From the NCBI GenBank assembly GCA_964450385.1, contig CAYVEC010000004.1, positions 22,148-86,147 on the forward strand: a DNA stretch of 64,000 nt, given 5' to 3'. Numbering within the stretch: position 1 is the stretch's first letter; each line of letters starts with the position of its first letter. Shown here one piece after another: positions 2,483 through 36,800 of the stretch. The stretch comes from an uncultured Planctomycetales bacterium. GTDB taxonomy: Bacteria > Omnitrophota > Gorgyraeia > Zapsychrales > JANLHA01. The notes beneath the pieces were generated by a model. That model saw only the letters and a program-made list of their open reading frames with translations, was not told where the DNA came from and did no database searches. A program made the translations under genes and the position numbers.

Positions 2483-2503
2483 TATGAGACGGAGGCGTTA
2501 GAT

Positions 2504-3388: not shown

Positions 3389-3412
3389 CATAGAGTGACG
3401 CGTTGTGTGACA

Positions 3413-3442
3413 AGGGGACGATTATCGTCCCCTTTTGTATTT
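3413..3442 (+). terminator. Rho-independent terminator after tadC
   Basis: GGGGACGA-ttat-TCGTCCCC perfect 8-bp stem followed by TTTTGTATTT, 25 nt after the tadC stop codon. Confidence 0.6.
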
Positions 3443-3456
3443 AAAAAGGGAAAAAT

Positions 3457-3511
3457 AAATGTCCAATTTTAATGTCCAAAATGTGTCAAGAGGGGTTTTA
3501 ATGTCCAAAAC
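3457..3511 (+). promoter_or_regulatory. Cluster of direct repeats TTAATGTCCAAAA (operator-like); a fourth copy lies at 3955-3968 inside the start of the giant ORF
   Basis: Exact 13-mer TTAATGTCCAAAA at 3469-3481 and 3498-3510 with a near copy AAATGTCCAATTTT at 3457-3470; an identical TTAATGTCCAAAAT recurs at 3955-3968. Three exact copies of an AT-rich 13-mer within 500 bp of a GC-rich genome is non-random. Confidence 0.4.
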
Positions 3512-3674
3512 AGCGACGGATGCGGAAGAAAGCCCTTTCATTTTTTTGGGCGAAAAGGGTCATCCTGTCGGCTGCAAAGACCGAAAAAAATTTTTTATTT
3601 TTTTCTCGACAAAAATTTTTTTCCAATCACCAAAAGACGTTTGATTTTAAACGAGTTAAAGCATAAAAATTTTT

Positions 3675-3702
3675 TTGACCGATTTGCCCGCTCATATATA
3701 AC
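3675..3702 (+). promoter_or_regulatory. Candidate sigma70-type promoter for the giant gene (TTGACC-N16-TATAAC)
   Basis: TTGACC at 3675-3680 and TATAAC at 3697-3702 with 16-nt spacing, about 170 nt upstream of ATG 3871. It is flanked by A/T homopolymer tracts (3581-3630, 3664-3674) that could act as an UP element or bent DNA. Confidence 0.35.
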
Positions 3703-3870
3703 ATGATATACTCTTAGCGCACTAGCCCGGAGGAAAAAAGAACAGCCGTATCGCAGTTGTCAAGAACATAATTGTCCAATCACAAAAGTCGCCTGAACCG
3801 GCGACTTTCTTGTTTTATAAAAACCCCGGGCGTTTTCATAATGTACAGTCTGTAAATATAGGATTCTTTT

Positions 3871-18800: not shown

Positions 18801-21800
18801 TCAGTCCGGAGCGTCGACGATGATGTGGAATACGGCGCTTAATATTGCTGGGCCAAGCCTTTTTGGAGGCAACAATTCTGAATCGGTGCTCGACCGCGTT
18901 AAGGCCTCTTCGTATCAGGTTGATACGATCGCCCGCGGGGCGTTCCTCATGAGCATGACCGCAGGCCTGATGAGGGGAGCGATGAAAAAAGTTCACCTCG
19001 AGATGGCTCCTGCTCACCAGACACGGGTAGGCATCGGCCTAGTATTAGGCGGCCCAGCAGCACATGTGGCAGGTGCGGCGTGGAGCGAGGGCCTTGATGC
19101 CGAGAGTAATCCCCGGATGAAGATCGTCGCAAATACGGTGTCAAATTTGGGGACCTTAGCCTTTGGTCTGGGCGCCCTTGTTCTCCTCAAACGGTTCAAC
19201 CCCGAGGGATGGGTCAAGGCATACAACGCGCATACAGTGTCCGCTCGCTGGGATGCGTACGGAACATTAAAGGCCGACTTGGTGATGGCCTTTGGGGTGA
19301 AGCCGGCGGCCGCGATCGTGGGCAACGGGCTGGGGATGTTGGGCGCGGGCTCACTTGTCTATGGGGGCAAACGGCTCTTCGGGGATCTTGTTTTGAACGA
19401 ACTCGATGCGTACCGGGACCGTACGCAACGGACATTGCAGGATAGGGTCCGGGACACCACGCCGTATTTATTATTTCCGCGGAGTCTGCCAGACGGTCGT
19501 CAGATTGAGATCCGTTCTCTGGCCGGACGGTTAAAAGAACGGGATCCTTTACTTACCCAATTAAACGGAAGAGAACTGTCGGAATTTTCTGAGGACGATC
19601 AGGACATGGATCAATTGCGCCAGGAGGCTCGCAAGGCCCTTGGTGATGCAGTGTCAAAATATAATATTAGCGAGATCGAGCATGATGGTTTGATCGAACT
19701 GATCTTGACCCGACGGGTGGATGCTTTTATTGAGAAGCACGGCGTTAACGGCGAGTATCTCGTGAGCGGGCCGGACGATTCATATATCGTGGCACGCGAT
19801 CCAAAGACAGAAAGCTATTACCGAGCTGAAGAATATGCCGCCACTGATCGCGCGAATTTTGTTCTTAATGCGGCGCTGGTGGCCTCTCTCTTTAAGATGG
19901 CGCATCATGCGAGACAGCAGATGGCTGTTTTAAATGCGAATCCTAATGCTGCTGTGGGGGCGGGCAAGACGCTGCTTAAGACCTTGGGGCAATCTATTGA
20001 CGGAATGGGCGCGACTTATGAATCGGCTAAGGCGAATCCAGCGTTAATGAGCTTAAAATGGGCGGCGGCAGGCACCGCGGCCGCGGGATTAGGTTATGCG
20101 GTTGACGCGTGGGATCAACGCGATGGGACGACGAGCCAGACAGCGCAGAGATGGGCCGATGCCTTAAAAACAGGCGGGCTTGGTATGGTTGCCATTGGCG
20201 GGGGTGTTGCGGCAGGAGGGCTTGTTGATTCTTGGATGAAGCCCGGGACCTTAAGCGTTGCAGGGATCCTGCACGCGCTGCCTGTAGCCACAGGACGGAT
20301 GGCCGCGAGCTCGGTCAGCAATATTTTCTTTGTTATGACCCCGCTCTCCGGCGCCCTGGAGGTTGTCTCGATGGCGGCCAAGGTAGGGGCTCGTACCGGC
20401 GGGTCATCACTTGAGAGGAATTTTCATAATGCGACCACCGCCGCGTTTTGGGATAACACTCAGGTCTGGAGTGATGTCTCGCAAAAGATGGTTGATATGT
20501 CTGCCTTAAAGTATCAGGGGGCGAAGAGTTCTCTCGAGGTTGTTCTCCGTTCGTTTTCGAACGGGCTTTTTGGTGTTTATGAAAACGGGCCGCGGCGCGG
20601 GCAATTGAAGGTAACATCTTGGGCTGAGATGCCGAAGACCCTTCAGGAATTTCTGCCGTTACCGGCGTGGCTCGGCGGGGCGAAGTCTGAAGACTATAAA
20701 GGGATTCAGGGGCAGATGATCGGATTTTCTGTGTCGTTGGCCCTCTTGCGTGGCGCCACTCCGGTCCTGCAGAATATCAAGGCCGGTAATTTCGGCCGGT
20801 GGTTCCAGTCGATGAACCATGCCTTTGATAAGACATTTGAACTTGATCTTTTTAGACTCCCGGTCCGGCCGAACGCTTCGATATGGAGGAAAAGCGCATC
20901 GGAGGTAACAGGGTGGACCTATCGGATGCTTAGCGGGTCCATTGAGGAGATTGGAGAGCAATTCGCTCAGGTTGGGTTGATGCTGACGCCGATCGGTTAT
21001 GTGAGCCCGATCCTTCAGCAGTTTGGAGTTTCGGCCCCGAGTGCACGCGCCTTTGCGGAGCAATTTAATGAGGTCGTGCAGGAGATCGTTTTGAGCGGGA
21101 ACGCCATGGGGATTCGAAACGCCCGGTACAATATCGTGCCGGTGCTTGATGAGATGTTGAAGCCGGGGGCTACTGAGCCGACAATTCGGAAGAGCCTTGA
21201 GGGGTTAATTCCGCAGGCCCAGGCCGCCGGAGGTTCGTCCGGCGCAGCGGCGCCCGGGAGCTCACCCGGAGGCCAGGGCGCTTCGCCATCTCCTGTGGCA
21301 CCTCAAGAAACAGCGAGCGCCACTGGCCCATCCGTGGCAGGCGGCACAGCGCCGATCACGGCCGAGGACGTGCCGTTTATTCTTCAGGCGTACGAGGACG
21401 CTGGATTTTTAACTAAGGACGGGCTGACCGTCGAGGGGCGGGTGATCTTAACAGCGGCTCGGCAGATCGCGCAGAGAGCAGAAGGTTCATCTGATGGCGC
21501 TGTAAGCGGTCAGGAGTCTGCGGTGCGGGAGGTCTTGACGGCTGCAAAAGCAGCAGCGGCAGAGGACCGAGAGGAAACCCTTAAAAAATTGAAGGCAGTA
21601 GCAGCCTTTTTTTCAAACAGCGCTTCTCAGCTCAAGCGGATAAAGGCGAAGATCAAGGATGTGGAGAAGGCCAAGGTCGATGAAGATCGGCGTTTTGATG
21701 AGCTGATCAAGAATGCGGACGATATGATGATTACTGAGGCCGCGTCGCTGATCCTTCAATGGGGCGCCGGTCGCGGCCGAGATTCATCGATGGCCCGGTT

Positions 21801-24800
21801 GTCACAGGGCCTCCTCACCCGAGGCGGATTGTCATCGGGCTCGTTTATCGGGATGCCTTTTGGTTATATGGCAGCCATGATCAGAGAAGGAGCGTTCGGT
21901 AAAGGGCTTAAGACGGCGGAGCTTGAAGGCACGATGTCAGATAGCGGCACGAGGCGGCGATTTGGACAGCTACGGCCGGCAGGTCAATCTTGGTTGGCGG
22001 AACATTTCTTAAATCCTGATCGGACCAGGTCTGAGGAGGATACGCTTGACATGCAGATTGTTGATTTGGCCGGGCGAGATCGAGACGCTAAAGCAGTGTC
22101 GGCCACGGCTGCGGCAGCGCCGGCGGCGTCTAATCCGTTTGACGCTGTTGATGGCGTGGCGTTTTCGGGAGGCCATCAGGATTCTGTTGCGGCCCGGCAG
22201 GGCTTTGATTATGTGCGAGCCCATCATCAGGAGGCCGTGGAGGTCGGGGCTTATTATCAAGATCGAGGCGCCACACATCAGGCGACGGTTGATAGCAAGA
22301 GCGGGCGTTTTATCGGTGTTGACGGGCAGGTCCTGGATCCGGCACGAGTGACGGTTATTTATACGCTTGGCGGAATGCGTGAGGAGATGCGTGGTGATGA
22401 GGGCACGTCGGAGACAGTGGGACTGGGCGTTGGAGGGATCGATCGGGAGACGGGGCACATGGTGGTTGTTCTTGACCGGTCCGTTGCTTTTGATACGCAG
22501 AATCCGTTTGATAACAGCGTCGTCAATCAGGTGGTTCGTCATGAGCGGAATGAGATTGCTCGTATCCGTCGGGCAGAACAGCGGGTGGGGCACGCTGAGG
22601 CCGGGACGCCTGCGGCTCAACTGGCCCATGAGAATGCTGTCCCGCTTGATGGGCAGGCTGTTGCTGCGATTCAGGCCAGAACAATTGCGGCGTCGGAGCC
22701 GGAGCTCGGCGCGGCCCAGATCGCATTGCGCCTGATGAAGACGTCCGGGATATCGTTTGGGGAGGCGCTGGGGCATGCTCAAAGCGCTAAGGGCAGCGTC
22801 GGAGGCCGGCCTTTAATGGGCAGCGAGGCCTCTGGCGGTGAGACGCAGGGCGCAGCGGTATCGGGAGAGGCCAGGGAACAGGTTTCATCCGTTGGTTTGG
22901 GTAATGTCACCTTGGTTGCTGCGTCAGGCGGGCAAAAGGGCGCAGGCTCTTCGGGGGAATCGGCGTCGCAGGGGAGTCGACAGTTAAGTGAAGACCTTGC
23001 CAGGGTAAAAGAGAATCTTCGTGTGTCTCGGCAAGAGTTGCGCCGAGTTCCTTTTGCACATATCAAAGAGATTGTAACATTGAAAGGCCTGCGGAACATG
23101 AGGGCCGATAAGGCTCGTTGGAAGCGTGTGATAGCCCAGCTTGAGCGCGAGGCGCAACGATTACAAACCCCGGTGGAGACGAAGGCTGAAATGCCTCCTA
23201 CACCGGCTGTGCCGTCTGAAATGAAGACTGTTGAAGTGCCTGCCCCGGCCGAGGCGAAGGTTCCGGCCCCGGCGGCCCAAGCTCCGTCGCTGAGCACAGC
23301 CCTGTCACTTGAAGACTACTTGACCTTGGATCGATCAGGATCCTTAGGCCCCCAGACGGCCGCTTCCTTAAAGATTTTAGGCAAGGATCCAACATTGGTA
23401 GGTAGGACGATAAGGCACAAGGTTGAACGAGGAGATTCTGTTCATGACATCATGGATTCGCTGAATCGAATCACCGAAGGACTGTTGCTTCAGTCAGAAA
23501 TCGATCATATTCGAGCATATGTCCAGAATCTCGTGGCGCTTCAAACGAAGGGAAGGCAATCTACGTCGGCTTCTTCAACTGAAGCTGTTTCTGTCGCTGT
23601 TGAGAAGGCTCAGCCTGAGGTGGGACACGTTGCGGTGGCCCCTGCCGATGTGAAGGTTCAGGTTCCGGCGACGGAGGCTCCAGCTCCTGTTGAAGCGGCT
23701 CCAGCGCCTGTTGTTCCACAATCACCGGCACCTGTGGGTTCGGGTCGAACGGCTGTTCAGGCTTCTCAAGGAGAGGAACGATCGAAAAGGTCTGCAGCCG
23801 TTGAAAAGTATTTTGATCCGGGCGTTGTAAAGGAGGTTTCATCTGCACAGAAGGATGTTTTGACGCGCGCGAGAGCGGATTTGGATGCCTGGGAGTCGGG
23901 CCAAGCGGGCAAGGATCCTCAAGAGGCGTACTCGGTGCTGATGAATCTGCCACAAGAAGAGATCTCGGACTCTTCATGGAATATCGCCTTGGATTCGGCG
24001 CGTACACGCGCGAGGCGTTTGAGTGAAATGGATTTTGTTACTCATGGGGTTCGTGAGGTGACGGTTAAGGTCAAGGTTCAGCCAACAAAACCGGGCCAGG
24101 AAGCGAGCCACCAACCGCGCACGGTCATTATTAATAATAATGATCAAGAGCAGGAGATTTCAATCGGCAATGATCGACATATCGTGCTTCGCGCCAATGA
24201 GGCGATCCTTTTAGATGCCGATCGTCGAGGCGGATTGGTGTTTGCGTTTGATCGAAAAGATCGTGGGAAGATAGAGACGCGGATTCTTGATATTGCGAAT
24301 CGGACTTCAGATGGAGTCGTGGCCCGATTGGATTGGTCTGAGACGGACCAGGCGGCACAGCGGGCTGAGGTCACAGGTGGCAGCTGGACGAGACAGGTCT
24401 CGGCAGGATGGACGATAGAAAAAGATGCAAATGATCAGGTCACCGATGTTCGCGATGTGGTGTTGAGGCGAACGGTTTCCGTATCCCAAGGCGCGCGCGC
24501 AGAAACGATAGAGACGGGCGATGTGAACGGGTTTGCTCAATTATGGCGGTTCCTTAGGATCATGGCTGCGCCGTCGAGTTTGCAACCAGCACAGGCAGAG
24601 AAGCGCGACCGCGTGCTGAATTGGCTTGCGGAGGATGCGGCGCGCGCCGAGGCGTGGGTGCGAAGAACCGTACCGGCCGCGGTCGGGGATTATTTAGAGA
24701 TGGAGTATGGCAGTACCTGGGCGAGAGATGTTGGGCGTGTCCATGATCATCAGACAGCAACGAGGCTTTTTGCTGCGCTGAATGAGGCCTTGGCTAAGGC

Positions 24801-27800
24801 TCAGCGCGACCAGAACGTTCCTTCTCCGGCGGAGATCCGCGGGTCAACGGTTTTGGACACAGGCGCCGTCGTTGGAGTCGATCAACGGGTGATCGGATTT
24901 GTGAGCGATGATGGGCGGACGTTCTGGCGGGGAGAGGACTCAGACGACGTCGGGTCTGTCGGGGCTGAGGGGCTGGGTGATGCTGTTAATAGCGTCTTGA
25001 GGGGGCTCAGGGAAAAGACGGATGAGCCAAGATCTGTTGCTGTCTCGTCGCAAGGACTTATTGTGTCGGGAGAGAACGGTTCGACAGGATCGATGGAGCG
25101 AGCTTTTGTTATGGCCCGGGATCCTGAGACAGGGAAAATGGAGCACGTTGGATATGCCCTAAGGGATACCGGAGACGTAAATAAGACACAGGAGTATGTA
25201 AGTCGATTAACTGAGAGCCGGGATTATTCTTGGGACGCGACTGCTTCGGGATGGGCATTTTTTACCAAGGAGCAATATCGCAAGATTAAATTTGAAGGTT
25301 TTGAAGAGTTGTTGGCGCAGCCTCAGAACTGGCGATTAGAGGATGCGTATGATGAAGGCCGGGTGACGGAGATTAGCGGAACGACGGCTGCTAAAAAGCC
25401 CCATGAGAAGGCGGCGCAGGAGGGGTTGAAGCAGGCCGTGGCTGAGGCGGAGGGATTGCGTGATGTGGTTATTAGCGTAGAAGGCGCGGCACAGCCAAAC
25501 GTTGATATCGAAGAGAAACTTTTCGGCCGGTTACAAGCAGCGCATGACAGCTCCCTGCAGGGTGGGCAGCGGCGGCGGATCGTTTTGGAGCATATTGGTG
25601 AGGAGGGGATGAAAGAAAAATATTCGGCGTTTTTTGACCGCGTCATTGATTTTGAGGATACGGTCGGTGCTTCGAGCGTGAACGACTATACTGATTCTCA
25701 ATTAAGAGACTTATATTTTAAGAAAAAAGATATTTCTGCGCCGACAGCGCACCAGAAGAATGAAGCGCTTCATTTGGCTAGGGCCCTTAGAGAAATTTTT
25801 GGAAAAAACATGTCAGCCCGGGCGTTCGCGTTTGGGATGATGCAGACCATAAAGGACAAGCTCCTTTCAGCCCATTCTGGTCGGCATAGCCCTGACAAAA
25901 CCCCCACATGGACGGTGTATTTGTCTGAGATCACGAATATTTCTCCGTTCCGACAGGCGATCGAAGCGCCGCGGCTTCAGCCGGACCCCGAGATGATCGA
26001 TGATTATAAAGAGCTCATCATGCACGAGATGCTCGATGGCCTGACCCATTGGCAGGCTGTGGAATTCCGGCGCCTGATGCTCCTCGCGCCTCAGGTGCTT
26101 GAAATCAAGGCCGAGCATGTCCGTCATGATTTTAGGGATGGATCCGGATATGAGATCCTTGAGGTGACCGATACCAACGGGGGGAAGAAGACGATCCGTT
26201 CGGTCTTGACGGTGGTCGAACAGGGCGAGCGCAGGTTGCGTCATTTGGAGCATGGGAGGCTGAAGGCAGGAGAGGTGTATCAAGCGGGCAGTCTCAAGCC
26301 AGTTCCGAGGGCTCAGGCAGAGTCAATGATTAAGGCGTATGCACAGGTCCCGGTCATGCCTAGTCAGGACGAGGAGGCCGAATACGGCGCCTCTGTGGGG
26401 CGCTTGACAAATGATGTCAGGGAGCGGATCGAGCGCGGCTTTGCACAAGAGGACACGAACGATGGTTCGCTGCAGCTTTATTCATTCGATACCTCCGACG
26501 GGATTACCGTTAGGGTTTTCCGGGTCCCGGAACTCGCGCGGACCGAAGAGGGCCGCCCGGTGACCGGGTATATTCCCGAGGGCAAAAACGAGATCTGGCT
26601 CGCGGATATTGAGTGGACGGCCAAGACGCTTGCTGAGGCGGCGGGCTATGATCCTGACAGTACGAAAAAACTCATCACCGAGTCCCGGCTAGAGATTTTG
26701 ACCCATGAGCTCGCCGAGATCCGCGCCGGACGCGACCATAAGGCCGGGATGGGGGCGACCGGCGATTTTCGTGCCGAGGCCGCAGTCCGCTGGCAGATGT
26801 CGGAGCCTGAGCATCGTGCGGCGGCTTTCCGCGCGGGCGGCGTCGAGGAGGCTGCCTCGCCGTTTGCTGATCGCCCGGTCATCGATCCCGCTGCCGTGCT
26901 TCCCGCTGCACCGGCCGTGACCCCAGCGATCGGGGCTGAGGCTCTGCCGATCCTGACGCCGGTCGGTCCTGTTTCCCCTGTGCTACGGGGGCTGCCGCAG
27001 GCTCGTGATGGTCTGCCGCAGGATATTGAGGTTGTCAAGGCCGACGATGTCCCTCAGGCCGTTCAGCAGTATATCAATTCAGAAAATGATGTCTATATTT
27101 TGCACGAAGGCGGTCTCGAGCCGGTTCGGGTTAACGGTCAGGGTCGGGTTACGGTTGTCGCGAACACATTCCCTCCGTCATCGCCGATCGCCCGACGTCT
27201 TGTGGCCGAAGGCGCGGTGATCGATCCTCGGTTCCTTGACGGCGTGACTGACGTTGAGGGTGAGGCCGCATCGTTTGTTCGTCTCGCTGTCCCGGCATTA
27301 AAGGGCGGGTCAGCGGTTGATGCGGGCGCCCCGGTTTATGTGGACGCGCGCACGACGGCAGATTCTCCGGCGGGGGTTGGCGAGGGGCTGGTCCGTGTGA
27401 TCGCGGAGATCGAAGATCAGGCCGGGCGTCGGCCGGATGTGGTGCGGTTGACCGATGCCGGGGCCGTGGCAGATGTTGTATTGACGGAAACGCGAGACGG
27501 GCTGATCATCGCGGATGTCAGCCGCCGTGTTTTGGGCCGAGAGGACCGCGGGATCGTGGGCGCGATCGGCGCGGCGGCAAAAGAAGACGCGGGCCGTTCG
27601 ACGGTCGCTGGGCTGATCGCGAAGGCCACGGCCTGGACAGGGGCCTTGAGCATTGCGAGGGAGCGCGGTGCGGCCGCGAAAGATTTCTTATTTAGAGGGA
27701 TGAGCGAGCCGGAGATCCGCCGGATCGCTCCGCGTGAGTTGAGCGAACGGGTTCTTGGCGCTGGGCGCGGCGTTGGTGATGTGGATGTGAGGAAGGCTTT

Positions 27801-30800
27801 GGTCGGAAGGGCCGCAACAGCGGCGGCGAGCGGTATTCGTGATGACGCCGCGACAGGGCAGGCCTTGAAGGCGCACTTAATGGCGCAGACTACGGCGCTC
27901 AAGGATGCGCACACCTATTTCGCGGACGTTGTGCGAACGGTCGAGAGCGGGGCGCCGGTCAGTGATGTTCAGATTAAGACGTGGCTCGAACACGGGCAAG
28001 CGATTGTCAACGGGATTCGCTCCTTAGCGCAATCGAGTGATCCGCTCGCCCAGGCCATGGCGCAGAGTCTGACCGCGGGCGGTGAGTTGGCGCGATGGGA
28101 TTTGGCCGCAGCCATGACGACGATCACGACACTGATGCAGGTTTTGAATGATCCTGCTATTGAGCGGGCATCTATTTTACCCTCTATGAAGGAGGGGGTT
28201 GAGCGGATCGGCACGATTCTAGACAAGGTGGCGCGGACGGCCGCGGCTGATGCGGTGAGGATCGGCAGGACCGCTGATAATCGGCGGTTTGTTCATCTGG
28301 ACGATCACCTGGTCACAGACGCGGTTCCGGTCGCCACGATCCGCCTCGCGGAGAGCGCCGCGCGTCCGGCCGCGGTAGCGATCGGTAGCGAGAAAAAGCC
28401 TGCGCTCGTGACGCGTCCGGCGGTGCCGGGGTCGGTCTTTGTGGCCCAGGCCTCGACCGAGAACGCGGATCCGGCCATGCTCGCCCTCGATGACGGTGTC
28501 TGGTTTAAATATTATACGGATAAACTTTTGGCGAACGATGTTGATGTCTTTGATAAAGTCGTTGTCGCCTTGGCCAGCGATTCTGAATTGAGCGCGGAGA
28601 CGCGGCGCCGTTTTGCCGAGGCGAACGGGGATCCGGCGGCGTTTGAGCAGATTTTAGGCGAGATGATCGAAGGCTCTGATTTGACGGCGCGCCTGAGCGA
28701 GGTGGCGGCGGTCTGGACGAAGGCCTGGGAGGCTGCGCTCAAGTTGAGGCGTGAGCGTGAGGCTGTGGCCGTAACGACAATAGATGGAACGCAAACTATT
28801 GATATTGACGGTGACGGCGGCGCGGCATCTGTGCCTGTGCTCGAGCCGATGCCGTTCACACCGACACTTGTTCCGTTACCGATTCCGGCTCCGGCGTTTA
28901 TTTTAGGGAAGGCGGATGCGGGCGGCCGGTCACGGATCCCGCTTGGCCAAGATGACGCGGCGAATCAGCGGTCGCAGGCGGTCCTTCCGAATGCCGCGCA
29001 GCTGCCGTTACCGAGCGAGACAGACGCTGGCGGCGGGTCACCGGTCCCGGCTGGATCGGGACGGCACGCGGGGAATGCGCCGTTCGTTCAATTAGCCAGG
29101 GCGATCCACCCGTCGGCCGCGGACGCGGTTCGGGCCGGGACGAGTCCCGCACGCACAAGCGACGGCACACGGGCGACCTATATTGATTATTCGCAGGATA
29201 CACGGATGAATTTCGGTTCAACCGGTCTTAGCCCAACGGCGAAGGCCTCTGTCGCCCTTTCCACAAAGGGTCAGACAGACAAGCGGCAAGAGTGGAACGG
29301 ACTTGAAGAAGGTGCTGTAGATGTAGCTGTAGATGGTATTGAAAAGGTGGTTGTGGCTTGTGGGTTAAGCACCGGCGTAAGTGGTGTGACGCTTGGTGAG
29401 GGAGAAACGACGGCGTGGACAGACACGCAAGTAGTAGCTGTAGATGTAGATGTGGTTGTAGAAGTGGCTGTATCTGTACCTGAAGTGGTTGGTGCAGTGG
29501 CGGGGGCTGTTGACTCAGGGATGCTGAGCAGCGGTAACGCGACTGATGAGGGGGTGACCGCGCAGAAAGATGCGCATGTTGATGGTGCTGTAGCTGTACG
29601 TATTGAGAAGGGTGTACGAAGTAGCCGTAGACGTACGCTGTATCGTTCTTTGGATCGGTCGAATGGCGCTGTGCGCGGCCTTGCCGTGATCCTGCCGGTG
29701 GCGTTTGTGAAGGCAGGGGATCGCCTGGTCCGGGTGATCGGTGCTGTTGGGGACCGTATCCAGACGAAGTTGGTTGTTCTTGGTCGTCAACGAGGTGCAG
29801 AAGGTGTTCTGTCGGGCGTGAAGGGTGTGCCGGCTGTCTATGCGGCGGATCCTGTGGAAGTGCCGGCAGATTCCGGGCATCGATTCGTGGGCCGAAATGG
29901 GTCTGCGAACAGGGTTGTAGAGAGCCTGGAAGGTCGTAATCGCTCTGTTATCGGGTCTAGGGGTGCGCGCAGGGAAGATGTGCCTGCTCGCCGCGCTGTT
30001 GTGAACCATGCTGCTGTCTCTGGGCATCGTTCAGCGGCGCCTAGGATCGGTAGAGGTGCTTATAGAGGAAATCGTCACGCTGTCCGCAATGTAGGAACTG
30101 TTATCGGAAGGCGTGTTGTTGATAAGAGAGAGGTGCGTGGACCATTCGGCGGATCGAACGGGATGCCGAGTGGGGTGCGCATGAACGGTCCTGAAGGATC
30201 ACGAGGCTCAACGAAGAGCGCCTCCGATATTCAGGGAGACCGTATTTCTAGTGTCCGTACGATCGTGCGGACTTCTCGCGGGGCACGGGGCCAAGAGGCG
30301 GCCTCGATGTTCCATCAGTTTGTTCTGAGCCGGATTCGCTATACGATCCAACCACGATCAGCGAATATCGCAGAGGCCCTGCGTGTCGCTGGTTCCGCTG
30401 TTGTTTTCTTCTCCGGTTCTCTGCAGGCGGCAGAGGCCGGAACATCCTCTATTCTACCCACACTAGTTATTGCTCATCCTGTGATCATGGTCTTGGCCGT
30501 TTTGGCCGGGATCGCGGCGGTCATGATTCTCTATAATATCAGGTCTAACAAAGGAGGCCGAACATGGTACTCGTCAATACACAACCGGATATTGAATTCA
30601 AGTACTTCATCGACATCCCGAGCAGTCAATGCACGTTCTGCTCAGGAAGGGAATGCGGCACAGGCCGGATCCGGCTCTACCTGGTCTCGCACGAGCGCGG
30701 ACGCATCTATGTCCGACGCGGGCTCGCCGGTGTCTGGGACGAACTCAGTCCAGCTCACCGGGTCAGAATTGAGCGAGCCATTGCGGCAGCGTTTCGCGAT

Positions 30801-33800
30801 CCCCGCATCCCGCGCTACAGCAGCACCGTTAAAGTCTAATGAATTCGTCGAGGTTGGACGTAACCGTCAGGACAGCATCCGGGCGGCTCAGAGGCTCTGG
30901 ATGATGCTCCCGGGCCTGCTGGGGGCGGTTGTCGCGGGCGTGGTTGCGATCTTCTATGTGCCTGGTGTTGCCGCTATGGCGATCGCAATGGTTGTCTTCG
31001 GATCGTTAACCCTGTATAGCATGGTGAAGGTGAAGCGCGACGTCCTGGCGACACAGTATGTCCTTTATATCTCGCCGGTGACAAAGCGCTTGTTTGGGGT
31101 TGTCGCGCTGGCGGGCGCTCTGGTCATGTCCGCGGGCACGGCGCGCGCTGCGGTTGACGACTATGCCGCTGACGGGGCGCGCGAGGTCGAGGCCTTTGTG
31201 CAGAGCTTAAGAGAAGGGGCAGATTCTCGAAAGGCGCAGAATGAGGCAGCCCTTCGGGTGTGGCTCGAGGAACAGCGCCTGAAATTGGCTCAAGATGAGG
31301 CGTCTTCGCCGGCCGCTACTGATGGCGGGGCGGCAGATGAAGAAGCGGTGGGCGCGGAAACCGGATCGCCCGAAGCAACAACCGCGGTCGCGGCCGGGGC
31401 TCCGGCTGAGCCTGCCGCAGCACGAGATGTTGTCCCGGCCCCGGATGCCGTAGTTCCCCAGGAAACAACGCCCGCTGACAATGCACCTGCGGCGGAGGCA
31501 GCAGCCGTTCCTGTGACGATCAGCGATGTGGTCACGCCGCTCCAGGGTGTTCAGCCGCAGGCGGATCCGGTCAGGGTTGAATTGGATGTTGTGACGAGCA
31601 TGCCGAGCTATTTCTTCAGGCTTGATGAATTCTATCGTCATTTTGATTCGGTCAATCATGCCCAGAAGGTGATGATGGCTATGGCGAACGCGGCAAGCGG
31701 CATGCGGACATATTTTATGGATGAGGAGGCTGGGCGGAGAGGATTGTTTGGGCTGAGCGAGTGCGAGTGGAACGAGGCGGTGGGCTCCATGGAACACAGG
31801 GGCCTTGTTGATCGCGGCATGAGTTATGCGATGGTCTTTGATCAAAAGCAGAGCGCCAAGGTTGCTGCCTATCGTCTTCGATCGCTGCTGGACGAGGTGG
31901 CAGCGAGGGATCAGTTTAAGAACCTGCCGAAGGAGGCGATCTTAAGACAGGCCTTGATCGAGTATCGTGCGAATGATGCTGCCGCCGAGCCGTTTGCTGA
32001 TCAGGTCATCGAGGACAGCATCCGCATGCTTAAGGAATATGGTTATCGTCAATATTTTGAGAAAGACGATCCGCTGAATAACGTCGTGTCGAGCCAGGCC
32101 GCAGCGCAGATGATGGCTCCGGTGAACCCGGATGCCCGGATCGATACCGTGACGGACGCGCTGACCGGCGCAACACCCACGAAGACGGACGTTCTTCATG
32201 TTGTCGCGATCATCGAGAAGCCCGAACCCGCTCTCCCGAATGAAAAGGGTGCCGATCAACCGCATCTCCAGGTTGAATGGCCGGAAGGGTTAACAGCGGT
32301 CACGCTCGATCAGCCGCTTCAGGCTGCCTGGATCAATGAAGATGGAACGATCTCTGTGGTCAAGGGACGCGCGGCCGCGGTTGAAAGTCATGACGAGACG
32401 CTGAACGCGGCAGTCCGTGCGGCCCTGGGGGCCCGCCGAGGCCGCCAGCAGGGGATTGTGAAGATTATTCCGCCGACGTTCTGGCAGCTGAATGAGGGTG
32501 AGCGTGACGTGCGCCGCCTCGCCTTGATGGAGGGGCTTGGGGTCCGAGAGAATCGAGTCGTCGGCAGCGCCCCGATCGTGTATTTCTTGGATGAGGACGC
32601 GGAAGTCGCCGCGCGTGGGGTTGATATCGATAAGACACGTTTTGAAAAAACGATCCTCACCGGCAGAACCCAGCGTCTGCCTGGCGAGAAGATCGAGATC
32701 GCGCCGATCCATCTCATGACCCGGCCGAATGCGACTCAGCCGGAGGCGGTTCACGCGGGATGGGCGTATCGGGTGACGACACCGTTCTTGGCCCCGGCAC
32801 GGACCCTGATCGCTGGGACGGTCGAAGAGATCAAGCATGACGGGTACGGGTTTGCGGTCCTGGTTCGAGAGGAGAACGACGGGCGGTGGCAGGTCCTCAC
32901 CCATTTGTCAGGGCTGACGGTCCGTCGTGGTGACACGGTCCAGGCCGGACATCCCGTCGGCGTCGCCGGCAAGTCAGGGAAGGAATGGTATTACATGATG
33001 CGGTTTATCAATCCGGACGGCAGGGCTGATGTCGATAATATTATGGTGGATGCCGGGACCGGTACGGATCTTGGAACATTATTTAATGAGAATGTCACGA
33101 AAGATGTGGCGGCCCAGGTCGAGGGTGTTGTGATCGGGGCGCCAATGACCGCGCTCGCTCAGTTTGATGAGGCGGCGGCACAGAAGGCGGATCACGAGAC
33201 GGCGATCGAAGAGGGTAAGACGGAAATCGAGAGGATGAAACGATTGGCTGCGTTGCCAACTCCAGAAGAGCGGGCAAGGAAGGAAAAGGCGGCTGCGGAA
33301 GGGGCTATTCAAGGGTTGAGCCAGGTGCACACGTTCACGCCAGAGGCGCGGCGGGCAGCGGCTTTAAAGACGATCCGCGAGCTCATGGCGGCTGGCGAAC
33401 AGAGGTCGAAGACCTTCCTCTGGCTGTCATGGGGTTCGTTGATGGCAGGATTCCCTGGTTCCGTGGCCACGGATATCGGGCCGTTGAGTGTGGGGGCCGG
33501 GGTGTCTAATTCCGGGATCCCGATTATGGAGATGTTCAGCCGAGTCGTTGGCCTGACCGAGGCCATGTCGTTCGGAGGCCAAGAGGTCCTTAACGCGGTG
33601 GGTACGGGCGTGGAAGTCGCTAACGCGACCGTGCGAGGGTATCATGATCCTGAGCGCCGCCGCGGCAGCGTGACAACATTTGATCATGCGATCAATACAT
33701 GGTTATTTGAGATCCACACGGTCTTTGTCGGGTCACGTCCCGACGGGAAGGGCGGATGGATCAATGATGAGACCTATCCGCAGATCGGTCTGCCGTGGTA

Positions 33801-36800
33801 TGAGGCCTTAGGCCTGCCGACACGGCTTCTTCAGCATTCCTGGGAACGCGGGGCGTCATGGCTGTCAGGTACGCCGATGCCGAAGGACCCGAACCTCTGG
33901 CGTCCGTTCGTCGGCCGTCCGTTTGAAGGCGTCTGGCAGGCATCAGAAGATGAGCGGCGGATCGTGGCCCTGGCCTGGAATGATCCGGATGTGAAGAAGC
34001 TCTGGGCCGTGGTGCGCGAGGGCGAGTATGTCATGTATGTGAGCTATTCGAATGAGAACGGAGCGGTGACACGCACCGAGCATCTTCGGATCCGGCCGTT
34101 TGTGAGTAAGCAGGGATCGGGCGAGGTGTATGCAGGGAAATTCTTAGAGGATAGCAAGCACCCGTTCCGTGATCTTCAAGACAATACAGTGATGCCGTTG
34201 CCGAATCGTTATCGTCTTGAGCAGCTGCCTGACCTTCGAGAGCCCATGGTCGGGGGGCAGCCGGTGATTGCATGGCAGTCTGATCCTGCCGGCACGACCT
34301 GGACCCCGATCTTTGCCTCTGAGGGGATGCCGATGGTGGCTGACGGGCAAGTCCCGGCGTATGAGAAGGGCGCTTATCACAAGGGGACCCAGACCGCGCC
34401 GGTCAATATTATTCAGGGAATGGCGAACGGGGCCGGCCGGCCTGCGGCCCTGGCGACACGGCCGGCGGTGCTTCAGAATTTCTGGTTTGATGTGAAATAT
34501 AATGATGGCGAGACAGGTGCGTTTGTTGTGCTCAATGCCGACGGGACCTTTAAAGAGATCAAACGATATACCGGGGATGGCAGCGGGCTCCGCCAGACAG
34601 GATTCGCGGTCCGCCGTGACATGAAGGGGGTCCATGACGCGGTTCTCGGCGGAAAATATGGACGGATCGAACTCGCTGATGGATTCCCGCTCGTGGTCGA
34701 CGGTATCGAGCTCAATAATAAGCAGATCTCAGCCGAGGACGCCAAGGCGGCCGAGTCACCGCGCTTCTGGGCGCTCAAGGACGGCCGTTATATCGACGGA
34801 GAGGTCGCGGTCTTTGTGCCGGCCCTGCCGCGAGCCGAGATCCCGATCGCCCGCCGGAACGTGAATGGACGGATCACGTATCTCTATTCTGTCGGAGAAT
34901 TTAACAGCATGCGGGTCCGTTCGAATGAAAAGGCCTGGGGCCTGAGGATTCGGGTGGTTGATCCTGCAGGGAATGTCACCCACGATGAGGCGATCACCCA
35001 AGAGGGAGAATTCCAGCGCTTAGTTGGTGTCGGATTCAACGACGTGTTTACGACCTTTGACCTCGGCGCGAATTTCCCGAATGAATTTAAGATGCTGTTG
35101 GCCGAAGGGGTGCAGGGGAGCGAGGCTACGGCCGAAGGGTATGACATTTTTAGGGCTGATGACGCGCCGCCCACCAGAACGGTTCATGCCCGCGCGGTAA
35201 CGGTTGCGGCGCCGAAATCGATCGCTCGGCCCGTGACGCTTGAGGGGTATCTGGCGGGCCTGAGGGAGAAGACGGGCGGTTCTCTGGCCACGGCCCTTGT
35301 CAGCGAGGCCGAACGCTTTATCACCGCGCGCGCGGAGTTGGATAAGAAGCGCGGGGCCTATGAAGGCGCCATCGCCTCGCTCAGGAAGGCGCGTGAGGCG
35401 AAGGGCGCCGCGAGTGCGGAGGCCCGATCCAAGGCCACGAACGCGATCGAACGGGCCAGCGTCAACGAGAGTGAGAAGATGACCTCGGAAGATGCCCTCC
35501 GGCTGGTTTTGCATAAGATCGCGATCGCGAATGCCGATCATATGACGGTGGATGAATTTTTTGCTCAGCTGGATCGTGATGCTGAGCGTCATGGGTTTGA
35601 GGCCGCGGTCCGCCGTGTCCTGAGGCAGCATTTTAATCAACTGTCGATCTCGCTGATCGGCAGTGATGTCGGTTGGGTTAATGACGAGCTGTCTCGTCTC
35701 GCGGAGGCCGAGCGGCTTAACCGTGAGCTCTATGCGAGCCAGAATTTTATTACCGCCAATGAGGCCTATGAACTTGAAGCGGATCAAGAGGCGTTTGATT
35801 ATATTACAAGCGAGATTGAAGCCTTGAACGAGGCGATCACCGAGCTGACGGATGATATTGAAGATCGGAATTATGATGAGATTTATTTCCAATATCCTGA
35901 CGAGATTATCCGCGGCATCCGGTTCCGCGCTCAAGAAATTCAAGAGGTGATTAACGAGCGCATCCCGTATTGGACGGAACAGGCTCAGATTGCCGCGAAT
36001 TTGGCCGAGCAGAATGAGGTGTATCAGTCGTGGGCGAATTGGACCGCCGCGATGCTTAACTTAACCATGGATCATCTTGAGATCGCGCAGACGGCCCTCG
36101 ACATCCTGCAGTATCATGAAAACGTCTATCTGCGGCCCACATCGGTCTTCTATCCGCCCGGATACGTTCTTGGTCAGCGTCTGGAATTGGCCGAAATGAG
36201 TCTTGATGCTTACACGGAGCAACAGCGGCTGTTAACCGAGTCGTTACAGCCGATCGTCCCGGATTTCTCACGGCTCAATTTGATCCCGCTTCGGCGGATC
36301 TATCCTGAGAACGCGACGCCTGAAGAACGGGCCGCGATCGATGCCGTTCCGACCATTGCCGAGACGCGCGCCTGGATGAGAGGGCGTCTCGACGCGATCA
36401 GTCAGGGGATCGATTATTATAACGAAGGGTTGGCGTACAGCCGCGGGTCCGAAGGGATCTATTCGAACACAACATTGCAGATCATCGATGAGTTCATTGA
36501 TAATCTTGAGCGTGAGGCTGCGTTATATAACAACACCGAATATGGGCTGACAGGTCAGCTTGCCGCGGATCAGGCTCTTCAGCAGGGGAACTCTGAGGAG
36601 ACCCCGCTTGACGTGCTCGAGCGTCAATATCAGTATCAGCAGGCCTTGAGCGAGATTTATGCCGAGCGGGCGGGGCTGATGGCCCAGATGAACGCCCTTA
36701 TTGAGGAGGGTGGGTACTTTAGGCAGGATTTGGAGCGGCGGCTAAAGACGATCCTCCGGCGTGAGCGTGAGTTTGCCTTTAATGCGCATGAGACGGTCTC

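What the first reader, a model, noticed from the sequence alone, without database searches (positions are those of the whole stretch)
29280..30560. About 1.3-kb segment with shifted codon usage, GTAGATGTAGCTGTAGATG microrepeats and an Arg/Gly-rich basic stretch
Third-codon positions are T-biased here, unlike the G/C bias elsewhere in the ORF. The DNA has short GTAGAT/GCTGTA repeats and encodes a VDVAVD-type low-complexity run followed by a highly basic RG-rich region (more than 30 Arg in about 230 aa). A TM module and an S/T-rich probable glycosylation linker follow immediately. Possibilities are a horizontally inserted cassette, a slippage-prone variable region, or an RNA/nucleic-acid-binding or disordered segment.
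Basis: seen in the sequence. Interest (0 to 1): 0.55.

Follow-up and report, generated by a model that had tools for sequence, protein, structure and literature searches.

The report
Odd low-complexity spacer in giant gene
The flagged 1.3 kb is a real but orphan low-complexity stretch (a valine/acid-rich micro-repeat patch followed by the most arginine-rich part of the protein) that sits just before a membrane-spanning module inside a more than 20,000-codon giant gene of an Omnitrophota bacterium; it looks home-grown rather than imported, and its function is inferred, not shown.

Summary
All three observations are confirmed. The segment lies in one stop-free frame of more than 20,046 codons (nt 3862 to the window end). 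Its N-terminus and upstream T2SSF genes match Candidatus Omnitrophota MAGs, so this is an Omnitrophota-type giant gene.

- **Codon usage:** the most deviant 300 codons of the ORF start at nt 29212 (G=140, z=5.6, null maximum 82).
- **Where the deviation sits:** it is concentrated in a 100-codon acidic Val-rich block (29302-29601). That block holds imperfect GTN-GNN hexamer repeats and most of the 14 (of the ORF's 92) rare GTA codons that cluster in nt 29257-29616.
- **Arg-rich block (29602-30384):** it has 39 Arg per 230 aa and net charge +28. Both are ORF maxima. Its codon usage is only mildly deviant (z=2.2).
- **Origin:** bulk GC equals the ORF mean. No homologue of the segment or its flanks exists in 1.84 billion representatives or in three contig collections. 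No mobile-element marks were found. Import is therefore unsupported.

Best reading: an in-situ generated, fast-evolving spacer whose basic arm is the cytoplasmic juxtamembrane side of a five-helix module that sends the following acidic region and M23 peptidase domain outward. Topology and function are inferred. In passing, a +3-frame 91-codon ORF (30564-30839) with a perfect SD and weak AMMECR1 similarity overlaps the "S/T linker".

The parts
3871..63999 (+). Giant ORF. It is stop-free from 3862, its first ATG is at 3871, it spans more than 20,046 codons and it continues beyond the window. The finding lies at aa 8473-8900 of it.
   Evidence: Six-frame stop scan. N-terminal 900 aa: 12 homologues, all with PF03412 (C39); the seven that carry an NCBI name are all Candidatus Omnitrophota/Omnitrophica. 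Pfam M23, HEAT_2, NUDIX, guanylate kinase and DUF218.
1625..3388 (+). Two T2SSF (TadB/TadC-like platform) genes immediately upstream of the giant gene (1625-2482 and 2504-3388).
   Evidence: Pfam PF00482, E 1e-18 and 1e-13. The same T2SSF-T2SSF-C39 giant-start order occurs in Omnitrophota MAG contig DAOTDK010000008.1. The first T2SSF is 69% identical to its counterpart there.
29302..29601 (+). Acidic Val-rich block (aa 8481-8580, net charge -14) with alternating V-x runs (VDVAVD; VVAVDVDVVVEVAVSVPEVV). This is the core of the codon-usage anomaly.
   Evidence: G=113, z=6.9, with 0 of 775 other 100-codon windows as deviant. Composition.
29314..29335 (+). Microrepeat 1: GCTGTA/GTAGAT hexamers, about 3 copies.
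   Evidence: TRF, repeat family D1, pattern search.
29434..29495 (+). Microrepeat 2: GTAGAT/GTGGTT hexamers, or a 12-nt unit GTAGATGTGGAT. TRF array 29434-29472 has 4.8 copies of 6 nt; degenerate copies continue to 29495.
   Evidence: TRF, D1 copies, GTA codon positions.
29602..30384 (+). Basic Arg/Gly/Val-rich block (aa 8581-8841; 43 R, 6 K, net charge +30). It is the most Arg-rich and most positively charged part of the ORF.
   Evidence: No internal protein repeat beyond shuffles. pLDDT 25-45. No family or homologue.
30385..30537 (+). Weakly hydrophobic helix h1 (aa 8842-8859, KD 1.16), a short turn, then strong TM helix h2 (aa 8866-8892, KD 2.03). Proposed helical hairpin.
   Evidence: Hydropathy. 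AlphaFold helices at aa 8834-8859 and 8865-8896, with pLDDT 50-76.
30538..30894 (+). S/T-rich loop of the giant frame (aa 8893-9011; 26% S+T; net charge +7).
   Evidence: It also has the lowest coding score and loss of codon phase.
30895..31143 (+). TM helices h3 and h4 (a tight VPGV hairpin) and h5. An acidic region follows (net charge -12 over 106 aa).
   Evidence: Hydropathy and loop charges.
32788..32982 (+). Peptidase M23 domain, about 550 aa after h5.
   Evidence: Pfam PF01551, E 2.1e-07, 31.5 bits, above the 28.7-bit gathering cut-off. Weak ShyA and Pgp3 NCBIfam hits.
30564..30839 (+). Alternative-frame (+3) ORF of 91 codons. AAAGGAGG ends 6 nt before its ATG, and it overlaps the S/T-rich loop. 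Noticed in passing; status unresolved.
   Evidence: the ORF listing. C3 is 0.47, and its codon score is equal to or better than the giant frame over the same span. The +3 phase is preferred in 270-nt windows starting at 30515-30571, which cover about 30515-30840. Weak AMMECR1-family hits in Pfam, NCBIfam and PDB, E 0.13-0.21.

Best explanation
The segment is a lineage-specific, in-frame spacer of an Omnitrophota giant multi-pass membrane protein. It arose and is evolving in place; it was not imported.

Origin (partly shown):
- Its first 100 codons are an acidic, valine-rich patch built by small in-frame duplications of GTN-GNN hexamers.
- Those duplications carried a codon that is otherwise rare here (GTA) to high local frequency. 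This founder effect produces most of the 'shifted codon usage'.
- The next roughly 260 codons are an Arg/Gly/Val-rich arm that is probably poorly structured, with net charge +30.

Function (inferred from the positive-inside rule and the order of elements):
- The arm lies on the cytoplasmic face, directly before a five-helix membrane module.
- The proposed path is: weak helix plus strong helix as a hairpin; a basic S/T-rich cytoplasmic loop; a second tight hairpin; then a fifth helix crossing in-to-out.
- The arm acts as a charge block and tether that fixes the orientation of that module.
- As a result, the following acidic region and the M23 peptidoglycan-peptidase domain end up outside the cell.

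What is shown: the composition, the repeat structure, the codon statistics, the orphan status and the Omnitrophota context. What is inferred: the topology and the topogenic role.
For: - Continuous frame of more than 20,046 codons. No other frame in 29.0-31.0 kb is open throughout or scores better by codon likelihood.
- Omnitrophota context, matching giant genes described next to T2SS-like loci (bioRxiv 10.1101/2023.11.21.568195).
- Founder-effect signature. The 120 codons at nt 29257-29616 hold 14 of the 92 GTA codons, and most of them lie in the block with TRF arrays. Codon deviance there is z=6.9, against only z=2.2 in the basic block. This stretch also has the highest repeated-8-mer count in the ORF.
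- Not foreign. GC is 0.564 vs 0.556. There are no homologues of the segment or of its flanks.
- The giant N-terminus (45% identity) diverges faster than the neighbouring T2SSF gene (69%) relative to the same relative. Published clustering finds 80% of such proteins to be singletons at 30% identity (10.64898/2026.06.07.730766).
- Charge and topology. The block holds the ORF maxima of Arg and net charge. All loops assigned to the inside are net positive (+30, +7, +3), and the region after h5 is net -12, then -17 up to the M23 domain.
- Across the ORF, windows within 150 aa of a TM helix are more positive than the rest (+0.25 vs -1.55 per 60 aa).
- M23 peptidases act on peptidoglycan outside the membrane (established knowledge), which fits the proposed in-to-out crossing at h5.
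- Low AlphaFold confidence over the arm, and confident helices only in the TM part.
Against: - The topology is unproven. Helix h1 is only weakly hydrophobic (KD 1.16 over 18 aa). If it does not span the membrane, the Arg-rich arm would be on the outside, or the M23 domain on the inside.
- No dedicated topology predictor could be run. Published work warns that TM predictions for these proteins are unreliable.
- The classical positive-inside effect acts over about 15-25 residues next to a helix. The 30 residues just before h2 are nearly uncharged, so 260 residues of charge is far more than a topogenic signal needs.
- The basic block still shows a T3/C3 shift that microrepeats do not explain.
- Both AlphaFold runs were single-sequence, so low pLDDT is weak evidence of disorder. 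The charge-hydropathy values I calculated by hand from the composition are borderline for the basic block and 'folded-like' for the Val block.
- No relatives were available, so neither age nor constraint could be measured.
Confidence: 0.5

Rival explanations
1. Relic of frame change or overprinting. The 1.7-kb island (about 29131-30846) is old coding sequence, or former gene-boundary sequence, that the giant frame now reads in a different phase. This would yield Arg-, Gly- and Ser/Thr-rich 'nonsense' that is tolerated as a spacer. The +3 ORF at 30564-30839, with its SD-ATG and AMMECR1-like motif, would be the trace of the older frame, or a nested gene that is still expressed.
For: - This is the only long run of near-zero or negative codon-likelihood in the 60-kb ORF (minimum -15 vs mean 25.5, sd 8.7).
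- Two of the only four places where the giant codon phase is not the best-scoring phase lie here: windows covering about 29930-30300 and 30515-30840.
- The +3 ORF has AAAGGAGG upstream of its ATG. Its position-specific GC (0.59/0.50/0.67) is closer to the gene's normal profile than the giant frame's is there. Its codon score is equal or better (-5.8 vs -8.9 bits; -0.7 vs -31.5 with upstream-gene training).
- The same family, AMMECR1, is the top weak hit in Pfam (E 0.21), NCBIfam (E 0.13 and 0.17) and PDB 1wsc (E 0.19, with 'AIAAAF.DPR.P').
Against: - Every AMMECR1 hit is above E 0.1, and the hits are not independent of one another.
- Only about 35-55 of roughly 170 domain positions are matched, and nothing continues the domain in any frame.
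- AAGGAGG occurs at chance frequency in the window (10 found vs 8.8 expected).
- No alternative phase reaches a positive score; the signal is loss of phase, not a clear shift.
- Alternative frames across the Arg-rich block are full of stops, and their open stretches give no significant family hit (only HisK-N-like at E 0.072, far below its cut-off).
- Selection for Ser/Thr/Ala in the giant frame would by itself make the +3 third position C-rich.
Confidence: 0.17
2. Nucleic-acid-binding or polyanion-binding arm. The Arg/Gly-rich block is a membrane-tethered disordered region. It would bind RNA, DNA, polyphosphate or anionic lipids, for example to hold the translating giant mRNA or ribosome at the membrane.
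For: The block holds the highest Arg content and net charge of the whole ORF. Arg is strongly preferred over Lys (43:6). AlphaFold confidence is low. It lies next to the membrane.
Against: There are no RGG/RG repeat motifs (0 RGG; RG 9 vs 5.6 expected). No match to any family or structure of nucleic-acid-binding proteins was found. There are no homologues to show conservation. The block is 13% Val, which is atypical for known Arg-rich RNA-binding IDRs (inference).
Confidence: 0.13
3. Length-variable (slippage-prone) surface or spacer region. The hexamer repeats at 29314-29495 would expand and contract between strains, tuning spacer length.
For: Real in-frame period-6 and period-12 arrays are present. 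This is the most internally repetitive DNA of the ORF. Only four weak tandem arrays exist in the whole 64 kb, and this one has the most copies.
Against: There are only 3-5 copies at 78-84% match. Such short imperfect arrays have low slippage rates (established knowledge). The period is a multiple of 3, so no on/off switching is possible. No second strain or read data could be found.
Confidence: 0.1
4. Horizontally acquired in-frame cassette from an unknown donor.
For: The segment shows the strongest synonymous-codon deviation in the ORF. The boundaries of the low coding score are fairly sharp, at about 29131 and 30846.
Against: - Bulk GC is unchanged.
- No donor-like sequence appears in 1.84 billion representatives or in viral, genome or metagenome contigs.
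- The flanks are equally orphan.
- There is no target-site duplication. The only bracketing inverted repeat is 13 nt, which is at chance level (10 such pairs in 2.4 kb).
- Most of the deviance is explained by repeated GTA-containing hexamers.
Confidence: 0.06
5. Highly divergent SPFH/band-7 (flotillin-like) membrane-scaffold domain hidden in the Arg-rich block.
For: There is a single marginal PDB hit to the mouse flotillin-2 SPFH domain (1win_A), at E 0.07-0.14 and 14-16 bits, aligned over aa 8627-8702. A membrane-proximal position would fit.
Against: The Pfam Band_7 model gives nothing even at E<=10. hhalign of a 24-sequence flotillin profile against the block gives a probability of 5%. No other SPFH structure was hit. 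Part of the match is to the GSSG cloning tag of 1win.
Confidence: 0.03

Closest known systems
Omnitrophota giant proteins: 'Archaeovorin'-type (West-Roberts et al. 2023, bioRxiv 10.1101/2023.11.21.568195) and the multi-enzyme, inner-membrane-anchored class (Nielsen & Lui 2026, bioRxiv 10.64898/2026.06.07.730766)
   Same: - A single ORF of more than 20,000 codons.
- Many hydrophobic helices in clusters.
- An N-terminal C39 peptidase region; a 24-protein PF03412 architecture cluster is described in the 2026 preprint.
- HEAT, NUDIX, HAD-like and peptidase domains scattered in otherwise unannotated sequence.
- A T2SS/Tad-like platform locus directly upstream.
- Interior sequence without relatives, in line with the published figure of 80% singletons at 30% identity.
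   Different: No SecA DEAD-like domain was found in the 20,046 residues available, and the gene continues past the window. Neither preprint's main text holds the search terms tried (arginine, codon, frameshift, disorder, low complexity), so a codon-deviant micro-repeat patch or an extreme Arg-rich juxtamembrane block appears undescribed there. This particular protein is not in the protein collections searched.
Positive-inside cytoplasmic loops and juxtamembrane basic regions of bacterial inner-membrane proteins (von Heijne's rule; established knowledge)
   Same: A Lys/Arg-rich segment flanks TM helices. Alternate loops are basic, and the exported side is acidic. ORF-wide, positive charge is enriched near TM helices.
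   Different: The scale is very different: 260 residues with net charge +30, almost all Arg, against the usual handful of charges within about 20 residues. The residues nearest the helix are uncharged. The topology has not been tested.
Low-complexity regions born from in-frame microsatellite or minisatellite expansion in coding sequence (general phenomenon)
   Same: The repeat unit is a multiple of 3. The copies are imperfect. Local codon usage is dominated by the codons of the founding unit (GTA). The protein product is a simple alternating pattern (V-D/A/E).
   Different: Copy number is very low, and the region is not obviously polymorphic. It sits inside a gene where such arrays are otherwise almost absent.
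RGG/RG-motif disordered RNA-binding regions
   Same: High Arg and Gly content, a strong positive charge and low predicted order.
   Different: There are no RGG triplets and no RG periodicity. The block is Val-rich, is bacterial and is membrane-tethered.

Membership tests
Omnitrophota giant (Archaeovorin-type / multi-enzyme membrane-anchored) proteins | A single ORF of tens of thousands of codons | tested here: met
   Stop-free over 20,046 codons and still open at the window end.
Omnitrophota giant (Archaeovorin-type / multi-enzyme membrane-anchored) proteins | Origin in phylum Omnitrophota | tested here: met
   All 12 N-terminal homologues carry PF03412, and the seven with an NCBI name are all called Candidatus Omnitrophota/Omnitrophica. 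Synteny with MAG GCA_035453615.1 and 69% identity of the T2SSF gene. The source contig itself was not identified.
Omnitrophota giant (Archaeovorin-type / multi-enzyme membrane-anchored) proteins | Numerous transmembrane helices along the polypeptide | tested here: met
   25 segments with KD>=1.8 over 19 residues, grouped in six clusters. This is a hydropathy scan only, not a topology predictor.
Omnitrophota giant (Archaeovorin-type / multi-enzyme membrane-anchored) proteins | Scattered enzyme and scaffold domains (NUDIX, HEAT, peptidases, HAD, etc.) | tested here: met
   NUDIX 1.5e-23, guanylate kinase 1e-27, HEAT_2 1.7e-07, M23 2.1e-07, DUF218 3.3e-06, weak C39 and HAD.
Omnitrophota giant (Archaeovorin-type / multi-enzyme membrane-anchored) proteins | Divergent SecA DEAD-like domain (present in 'most') | tested here: not met
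   No SecA family hit at E<=0.01 in the 20,000 residues scanned. The 3' part of the gene is outside the window, so absence from the whole protein is not established.
Omnitrophota giant (Archaeovorin-type / multi-enzyme membrane-anchored) proteins | T2SS-like locus adjacent to the giant gene | tested here: met
   Two T2SSF genes at 1625-3388, conserved in the relative's contig.
Horizontally transferred cassette / genomic islet | Base composition different from the host gene | tested here: not met
   GC is 0.564 against an ORF mean of 0.556 (flanks 0.60-0.62). Only synonymous-codon choice differs.
Horizontally transferred cassette / genomic islet | Homologues in other lineages or mobile elements | tested here: not met
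   No hits.
Horizontally transferred cassette / genomic islet | Insertion hallmarks (target-site duplication, terminal repeats, integrase) | tested here: not met
   Only chance-level 12-15-nt repeats were found. There is no paralogue in the window.
Simple-sequence contingency locus (phase or length variation) | A long, near-perfect tandem array | tested here: not met
   3.2-4.8 copies at 78-84% match.
Simple-sequence contingency locus (phase or length variation) | Observed length polymorphism between strains or reads | not testable with these tools
   No second copy of this locus exists in any collection searched. There is no read data.
RGG/RG-motif nucleic-acid-binding region | Clustered RGG or RG repeats | tested here: not met
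   0 RGG. RG 9 and GR 5, against 5.6 expected from composition.
SPFH / band-7 domain | Significant match to the Band_7 profile or an SPFH fold | tested here: not met
   Pfam gives no hit at E<=10. hhalign probability is 5%. The only hit is a single PDB match at E 0.07.
Positive-inside cytoplasmic loop | Excess of Lys+Arg in the loop flanking TM helices, with an opposite-side loop that is short or acidic | tested here: met
   Net charges are +30, +7 and +3 for the proposed inside loops. The turns are uncharged, and the stretch after h5 is -12.
Positive-inside cytoplasmic loop | Experimentally or algorithmically established cytoplasmic location | not testable with these tools
   No topology predictor or experiment was available. 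Single-sequence AlphaFold of aa 8781-9153 was uninformative.
Diversity-generating retroelement target (variable repeat) | A template repeat copy and a reverse transcriptase nearby | tested here: not met
   No second copy of the segment exists on either strand of the 64-kb window. No RT domain appeared among the Pfam hits.

The most novel reading that the evidence does not exclude
The 1.7-kb island (about 29131-30846) may be a caught-in-the-act example of how giant genes gain new sequence. Hexamer slippage would create the Val-rich patch. A frame change over older coding sequence would produce the Arg-rich and S/T-rich 'nonsense' that is then co-opted as a membrane-proximal spacer. On this reading, the +3 ORF at 30564-30839 (SD-ATG, AMMECR1-like motif) is either the fossil of the former frame or a still-functional gene nested inside the giant gene.
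Probability: 0.12. Interest if true: 0.6.

Novelty: new member of a known kind. Interest (0 to 1): 0.3.

Why it matters
Giant genes of Omnitrophota are a recently recognised and largely unannotated class. How they grow, and how a polypeptide of tens of thousands of residues is threaded through the membrane, are open questions.

This segment is the single most atypical stretch of a gene longer than 60 kb, by codon usage, internal repetition and charge, and it sits exactly at a membrane-crossing module. If the in-situ origin and the topogenic role are right, it gives a concrete, testable example of two things:
- local sequence birth inside a giant gene;
- a charge block that sets which parts (here an M23 cell-wall peptidase) are exported.

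If it is only a tolerated filler, it is ordinary. It is still a useful caution for annotation: low-complexity islands with odd codon usage in such genes need not indicate transfer.

Tried and rejected
1. **Homology of the segment plus TM module.** All searches were empty: the word-indexed search of 5.8 billion proteins; full HMMER against 1.84 billion representatives with aa 8427-9613; and genome, metagenome and viral contig scans. The upstream flank and downstream flank were also empty, so no comparative test of insertion or variability was possible.
2. **Source contig.** An exact look-up with the two T2SSF proteins found nothing on record.
3. **Family and structure libraries.** Pfam, NCBIfam and PDB sequence searches of the segment gave nothing significant.
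4. **SPFH/flotillin lead.** The PDB hit at E 0.07 was rejected after a Pfam no-hit and an hhalign probability of 5%.
5. **Internal protein repeats in aa 8471-8850.** The best diagonal score was 30, against a shuffle mean of 29.8. BLASTP against itself and against the giant protein found only the identity match.
6. **Copy elsewhere in the window.** blastn and tblastx found no duplicated, inverted or frame-shifted copy of the segment.
7. **RNA element.** No Rfam family reaches its gathering score anywhere in the window.
8. **Internal promoter or terminator.** Counts are at shuffle expectation.
9. **Antisense ORF 29515-30027 and other alternative-frame stretches.** They have junk-like composition and no significant Pfam hit; only HisK-N-like at E 0.072, 13.7 bits vs a 27.8-bit cut-off.
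10. **AlphaFold without an alignment.** The segment and the TM module both gave low confidence. No fold search was attempted because the matches would be meaningless.
11. **Rare-codon pause for membrane targeting.** Rejected because the deviant codons lie upstream of the TM helix, not downstream of it, and other TM clusters in the ORF show no such shift.
12. **Bracketing inverted repeat 29244-29256 / 30426-30438.** It is 13 nt with one mismatch and at chance level among 10 similar pairs. By my own reading of the sequence, there is no target-site duplication.

Full report
**What is at the coordinates**

The finding (nt 29280-30560) lies inside one stop-free reading frame. The frame runs from nt 3862 to the end of the window, which is 20,046 codons and still open at the 3' end. 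The first ATG is at 3871. The list of complete ORFs shows nothing long on the + strand here only because the frame runs off the window. In protein terms the finding covers aa 8473-8900.

**Context**

- Two T2SSF (TadB/TadC-like) genes lie directly upstream, at 1625-2482 and 2504-3388.
- Pfam finds only scattered domains in the 20,000 residues:
  - a weak C39 peptidase near the N-terminus;
  - M23 peptidase at nt 32788-32982;
  - HEAT_2, NUDIX, guanylate kinase and DUF218 at 51-59 kb.
- The first 900 residues have 12 homologues. All carry PF03412, and the seven that carry an NCBI name are all called Candidatus Omnitrophota/Omnitrophica. The best is 45% identical.
- That best hit sits on a MAG contig (GCA_035453615.1, DAOTDK010000008.1) with the same gene order: T2SSF, T2SSF, then the giant-gene start. 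Its first T2SSF is 69% identical to the window's.
- This matches the published description of Omnitrophota giant genes: many TM regions, C39, NUDIX and HEAT content, and a T2SS-like locus upstream (10.1101/2023.11.21.568195; 10.64898/2026.06.07.730766).
- The object as a whole is therefore a new member of a known kind.

**Checking the observation: codon usage**

- In 200-codon windows, GC3 drops from 0.64-0.72 in the flanks to 0.49-0.50. T3 rises to 0.33-0.355, which is the ORF maximum (mean 0.251, sd 0.038).
- Similar raw GC3 occurs elsewhere in the ORF, so I controlled for amino-acid content with a synonymous-codon G statistic. The 300 codons starting at nt 29212 are the most deviant of the whole ORF: G=140, z=5.6. 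The largest value in 20 synonymous-shuffle nulls was 82.
- The shift is a loss of C-ending codons:
  - GTC 0.08 vs 0.33;
  - GGC 0.17 vs 0.37;
  - GCC 0.08 vs 0.32.
- The gains are in GTA (0.27 vs 0.04), GGT and GCT.
- Dissection shows the anomaly is concentrated in the first 100 codons, nt 29302-29601 (z=6.9; none of 775 other windows reaches it). The Arg-rich block is only mildly deviant (z=2.2; 13 of 762 windows exceed it).

**Checking the observation: microrepeats**

- TRF reports period-6 and period-12 arrays at 29314-29332 and 29434-29472.
- The 120 codons at nt 29257-29616 hold 14 of the ORF's 92 GTA codons.
- This stretch has the most repeated 8-mers of any 900-nt window in the ORF (44 vs 13.5, sd 7.2).
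- The arrays are short and imperfect: 3-5 copies at 78-84% match.
- Only four weak tandem arrays exist in all 64 kb.

**Checking the observation: basic stretch and what follows**

- The 230 residues from aa 8581 contain 39 Arg (ORF mean 15.7, sd 4.5) and carry net charge +28 (mean -4.5, sd 8.0). Both are ORF maxima.
- The block has 43 Arg to 6 Lys, no RGG, and RG dipeptides near composition expectation. 'RG-rich' here is composition, not a motif array.
- An acidic Val-rich block (net -14) precedes it. Hydrophobic helices and a 26% S+T loop follow it.

**A wider island**

- A codon-likelihood scan trained on the ORF itself gives one long run of near-zero or negative scores in the whole 60 kb. 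It covers nt about 29131-30846, with a minimum of -15 against a mean of 25.5 (sd 8.7).
- A stop-blind phase test finds the giant phase best in 99.64% of 270-nt windows. Two of the only four exceptions lie in this island, in windows covering about 29930-30300 and 30515-30840.
- No alternative phase reaches a positive score there, so the signal is loss of the usual periodicity rather than a clean shift.
- No other frame is open through the island, and none scores better by codon likelihood.
- By my estimate, keeping 570 codons free of stops by chance is about 1e-10 at this base composition. The frame is therefore maintained.

**Is it foreign?**

- Bulk GC is 0.564, against an ORF mean of 0.556.
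- Nothing similar to aa 8427-9113 or 8427-9613 exists in:
  - the word-indexed collection of 5.8 billion proteins;
  - a full HMMER scan of 1.84 billion representatives;
  - GTDB species genomes, JGI metagenome contigs or IMG/VR.
- The upstream flank (aa 7401-8426) and downstream flank (aa 9095-10000) are equally without relatives. The segment is therefore no more orphan than its surroundings.
- The published figure of 80% singleton clusters among such proteins makes this unsurprising.
- There is no paralogue, inverted copy or frame-shifted copy in the window.
- There are no insertion hallmarks.
- Most of the codon deviance coincides with repeated GTA-bearing hexamers. This is what a founder effect of micro-duplication produces. 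I therefore read the segment as home-grown.

**How it most likely works**

The local order of elements is:

| Element | Residues | Property |
|---|---|---|
| Acidic Val block | aa 8481-8580 | net -14 |
| Arg-rich arm | aa 8581-8841 | net +30 |
| Helix h1 | aa 8842-8859 | weakly hydrophobic, KD 1.16 |
| Turn | 6 residues | uncharged |
| Helix h2 | aa 8866-8892 | strong TM helix, KD 2.03 |
| S/T-rich loop | aa 8893-9011 | net +7 |
| Helices h3 and h4 | aa 9012-9055 | joined by VPGV |
| Loop | aa 9056-9075 | net +3 |
| Helix h5 | aa 9076-9094 | TM helix, KD 1.61 |
| Acidic sequence up to the M23 domain | aa 9095-9640 | net -12, then -17 |

- One topology puts every basic loop inside and the acidic, M23-bearing part outside. 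It is: arm inside, h1-h2 hairpin, loop inside, h3-h4 hairpin, loop inside, then h5 crossing in-to-out.
- M23 peptidases cleave peptidoglycan, so an outside location makes sense (established knowledge).
- Across the ORF, windows near TM helices are more positive than the rest.
- On this reading the Arg-rich arm is the cytoplasmic, membrane-proximal tether and charge block of the module. The 'glycosylation linker' is a cytoplasmic loop.
- This is inference. h1 is marginal as a TM helix, the 30 residues next to h2 are nearly uncharged, and +30 over 260 residues exceeds any topogenic need.
- I could not run a topology predictor, and single-sequence AlphaFold models were uninformative apart from helices in the TM part.

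**Rivals**

1. Frame-change or overprinting relic.
   - For: the island's loss of codon phase, the extreme Arg:Lys ratio, and the +3 ORF at 30564-30839.
   - That ORF has AAAGGAGG ending 6 nt before its ATG and a C-rich third position. Its codon score is equal to or better than the giant frame's over the same span.
   - The same weak top hit, AMMECR1, appears in Pfam, NCBIfam and PDB (E 0.13-0.21; 'AIAAAF.DPR.P').
   - Against: none of these hits is significant and they are not independent. AAGGAGG is at chance frequency. Selection for Ser/Thr/Ala in the giant frame would itself make the +3 third position C-rich.
2. Polyanion-binding or nucleic-acid-binding arm. Composition fits, but there is no motif, family or conservation evidence.
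3. Length-variable repeat region. The arrays are too short and imperfect, their period is a multiple of 3, and no population data are available.
4. Imported cassette. See the section on foreign origin above.
5. Divergent SPFH domain. A single flotillin-2 hit at E 0.07 was not backed by the Pfam Band_7 model or by hhalign with a flotillin profile (probability 5%).

**Novelty and interest**

- The giant gene is a new member of a described class.
- The segment is a low-complexity, orphan spacer of a kind expected in such proteins, although it is the statistical extreme of this one.
- The main texts of the two preprints hold none of the terms I searched for (arginine, codon, frameshift, disorder, low complexity), so such an island appears undescribed there.
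- It becomes interesting only if it documents sequence birth inside a giant gene, or a nested gene. I rate that as possible but unlikely on present evidence.
- Overall interest is 0.3.

Noticed in passing
window 30564-30839 (+ strand, frame +3 relative to the giant ORF): A 91-codon alternative-frame ORF with a perfect Shine-Dalgarno (AAAGGAGG, 30550-30557) ending 6 nt before its ATG, and a protein-like translation (MVLVNTQPDIEFKYF...CTFCSGREC...). Its third position is C-rich (0.47). AMMECR1 is the weak top hit in Pfam, NCBIfam and PDB (E 0.13-0.21). It overlaps exactly the 'S/T-rich linker' of the giant frame, which has the ORF's lowest coding score. It could be a by-product of Ser/Thr codons, a fossil frame or a nested gene.
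   Followed up: partly
window 29131-30846: The atypical region is wider than the finding. It is the only long run of near-zero or negative codon-likelihood in the 60-kb ORF, and it contains two of the four places where the giant codon phase is not the best-scoring phase.
   Followed up: yes
window 3862-63999: The whole window downstream of nt 3862 is one open frame of more than 20,046 codons that continues past the window. The interior (at least aa 7401-10000) has no detectable relatives, while the N-terminal C39 region does. The giant N-terminus is 45% identical to the same relative whose neighbouring T2SSF gene is 69% identical, which suggests faster evolution of the giant gene.
   Followed up: partly
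window 23362-24260 and 58462-59360: These hold the second and third most codon-deviant 300-codon stretches (G=115 and 96). The first contains Pro/Ala/Val-rich linker sequence. The second covers the DUF218 domain and is one of the four phase-ambiguous spots.
   Followed up: no
window 21720-22040: Another short stretch where the +3 phase scores better than the giant phase (margin about 10 bits, all scores negative). The giant frame there reads Gly/Ser/Arg-rich sequence (…GAGRGRDSSMARLSQGLLTRGGLSSGSF…).
   Followed up: no
window 17000-18300 (aa about 4400-4790): A Gly/Ala/Val-rich cluster of weak hydrophobic segments. The 1-kb window 17001-18000 has the window's highest GC skew (0.282) and strongest T-over-A skew (-0.219). 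This may be an unusual glycine-zipper-like membrane module.
   Followed up: no
window 3389-3870: A 480-nt AT-rich intergenic region with long A/T runs lies between the second T2SSF gene and the giant-gene start. It presumably holds the promoter and leader of the giant gene.
   Followed up: no
window 29740-29967 (aa 8627-8702): A marginal phmmer match to the SPFH domain of mouse flotillin-2 (PDB 1win_A, E 0.07-0.14). It was not confirmed by the Pfam Band_7 model or by hhalign (probability 5%).
   Followed up: yes
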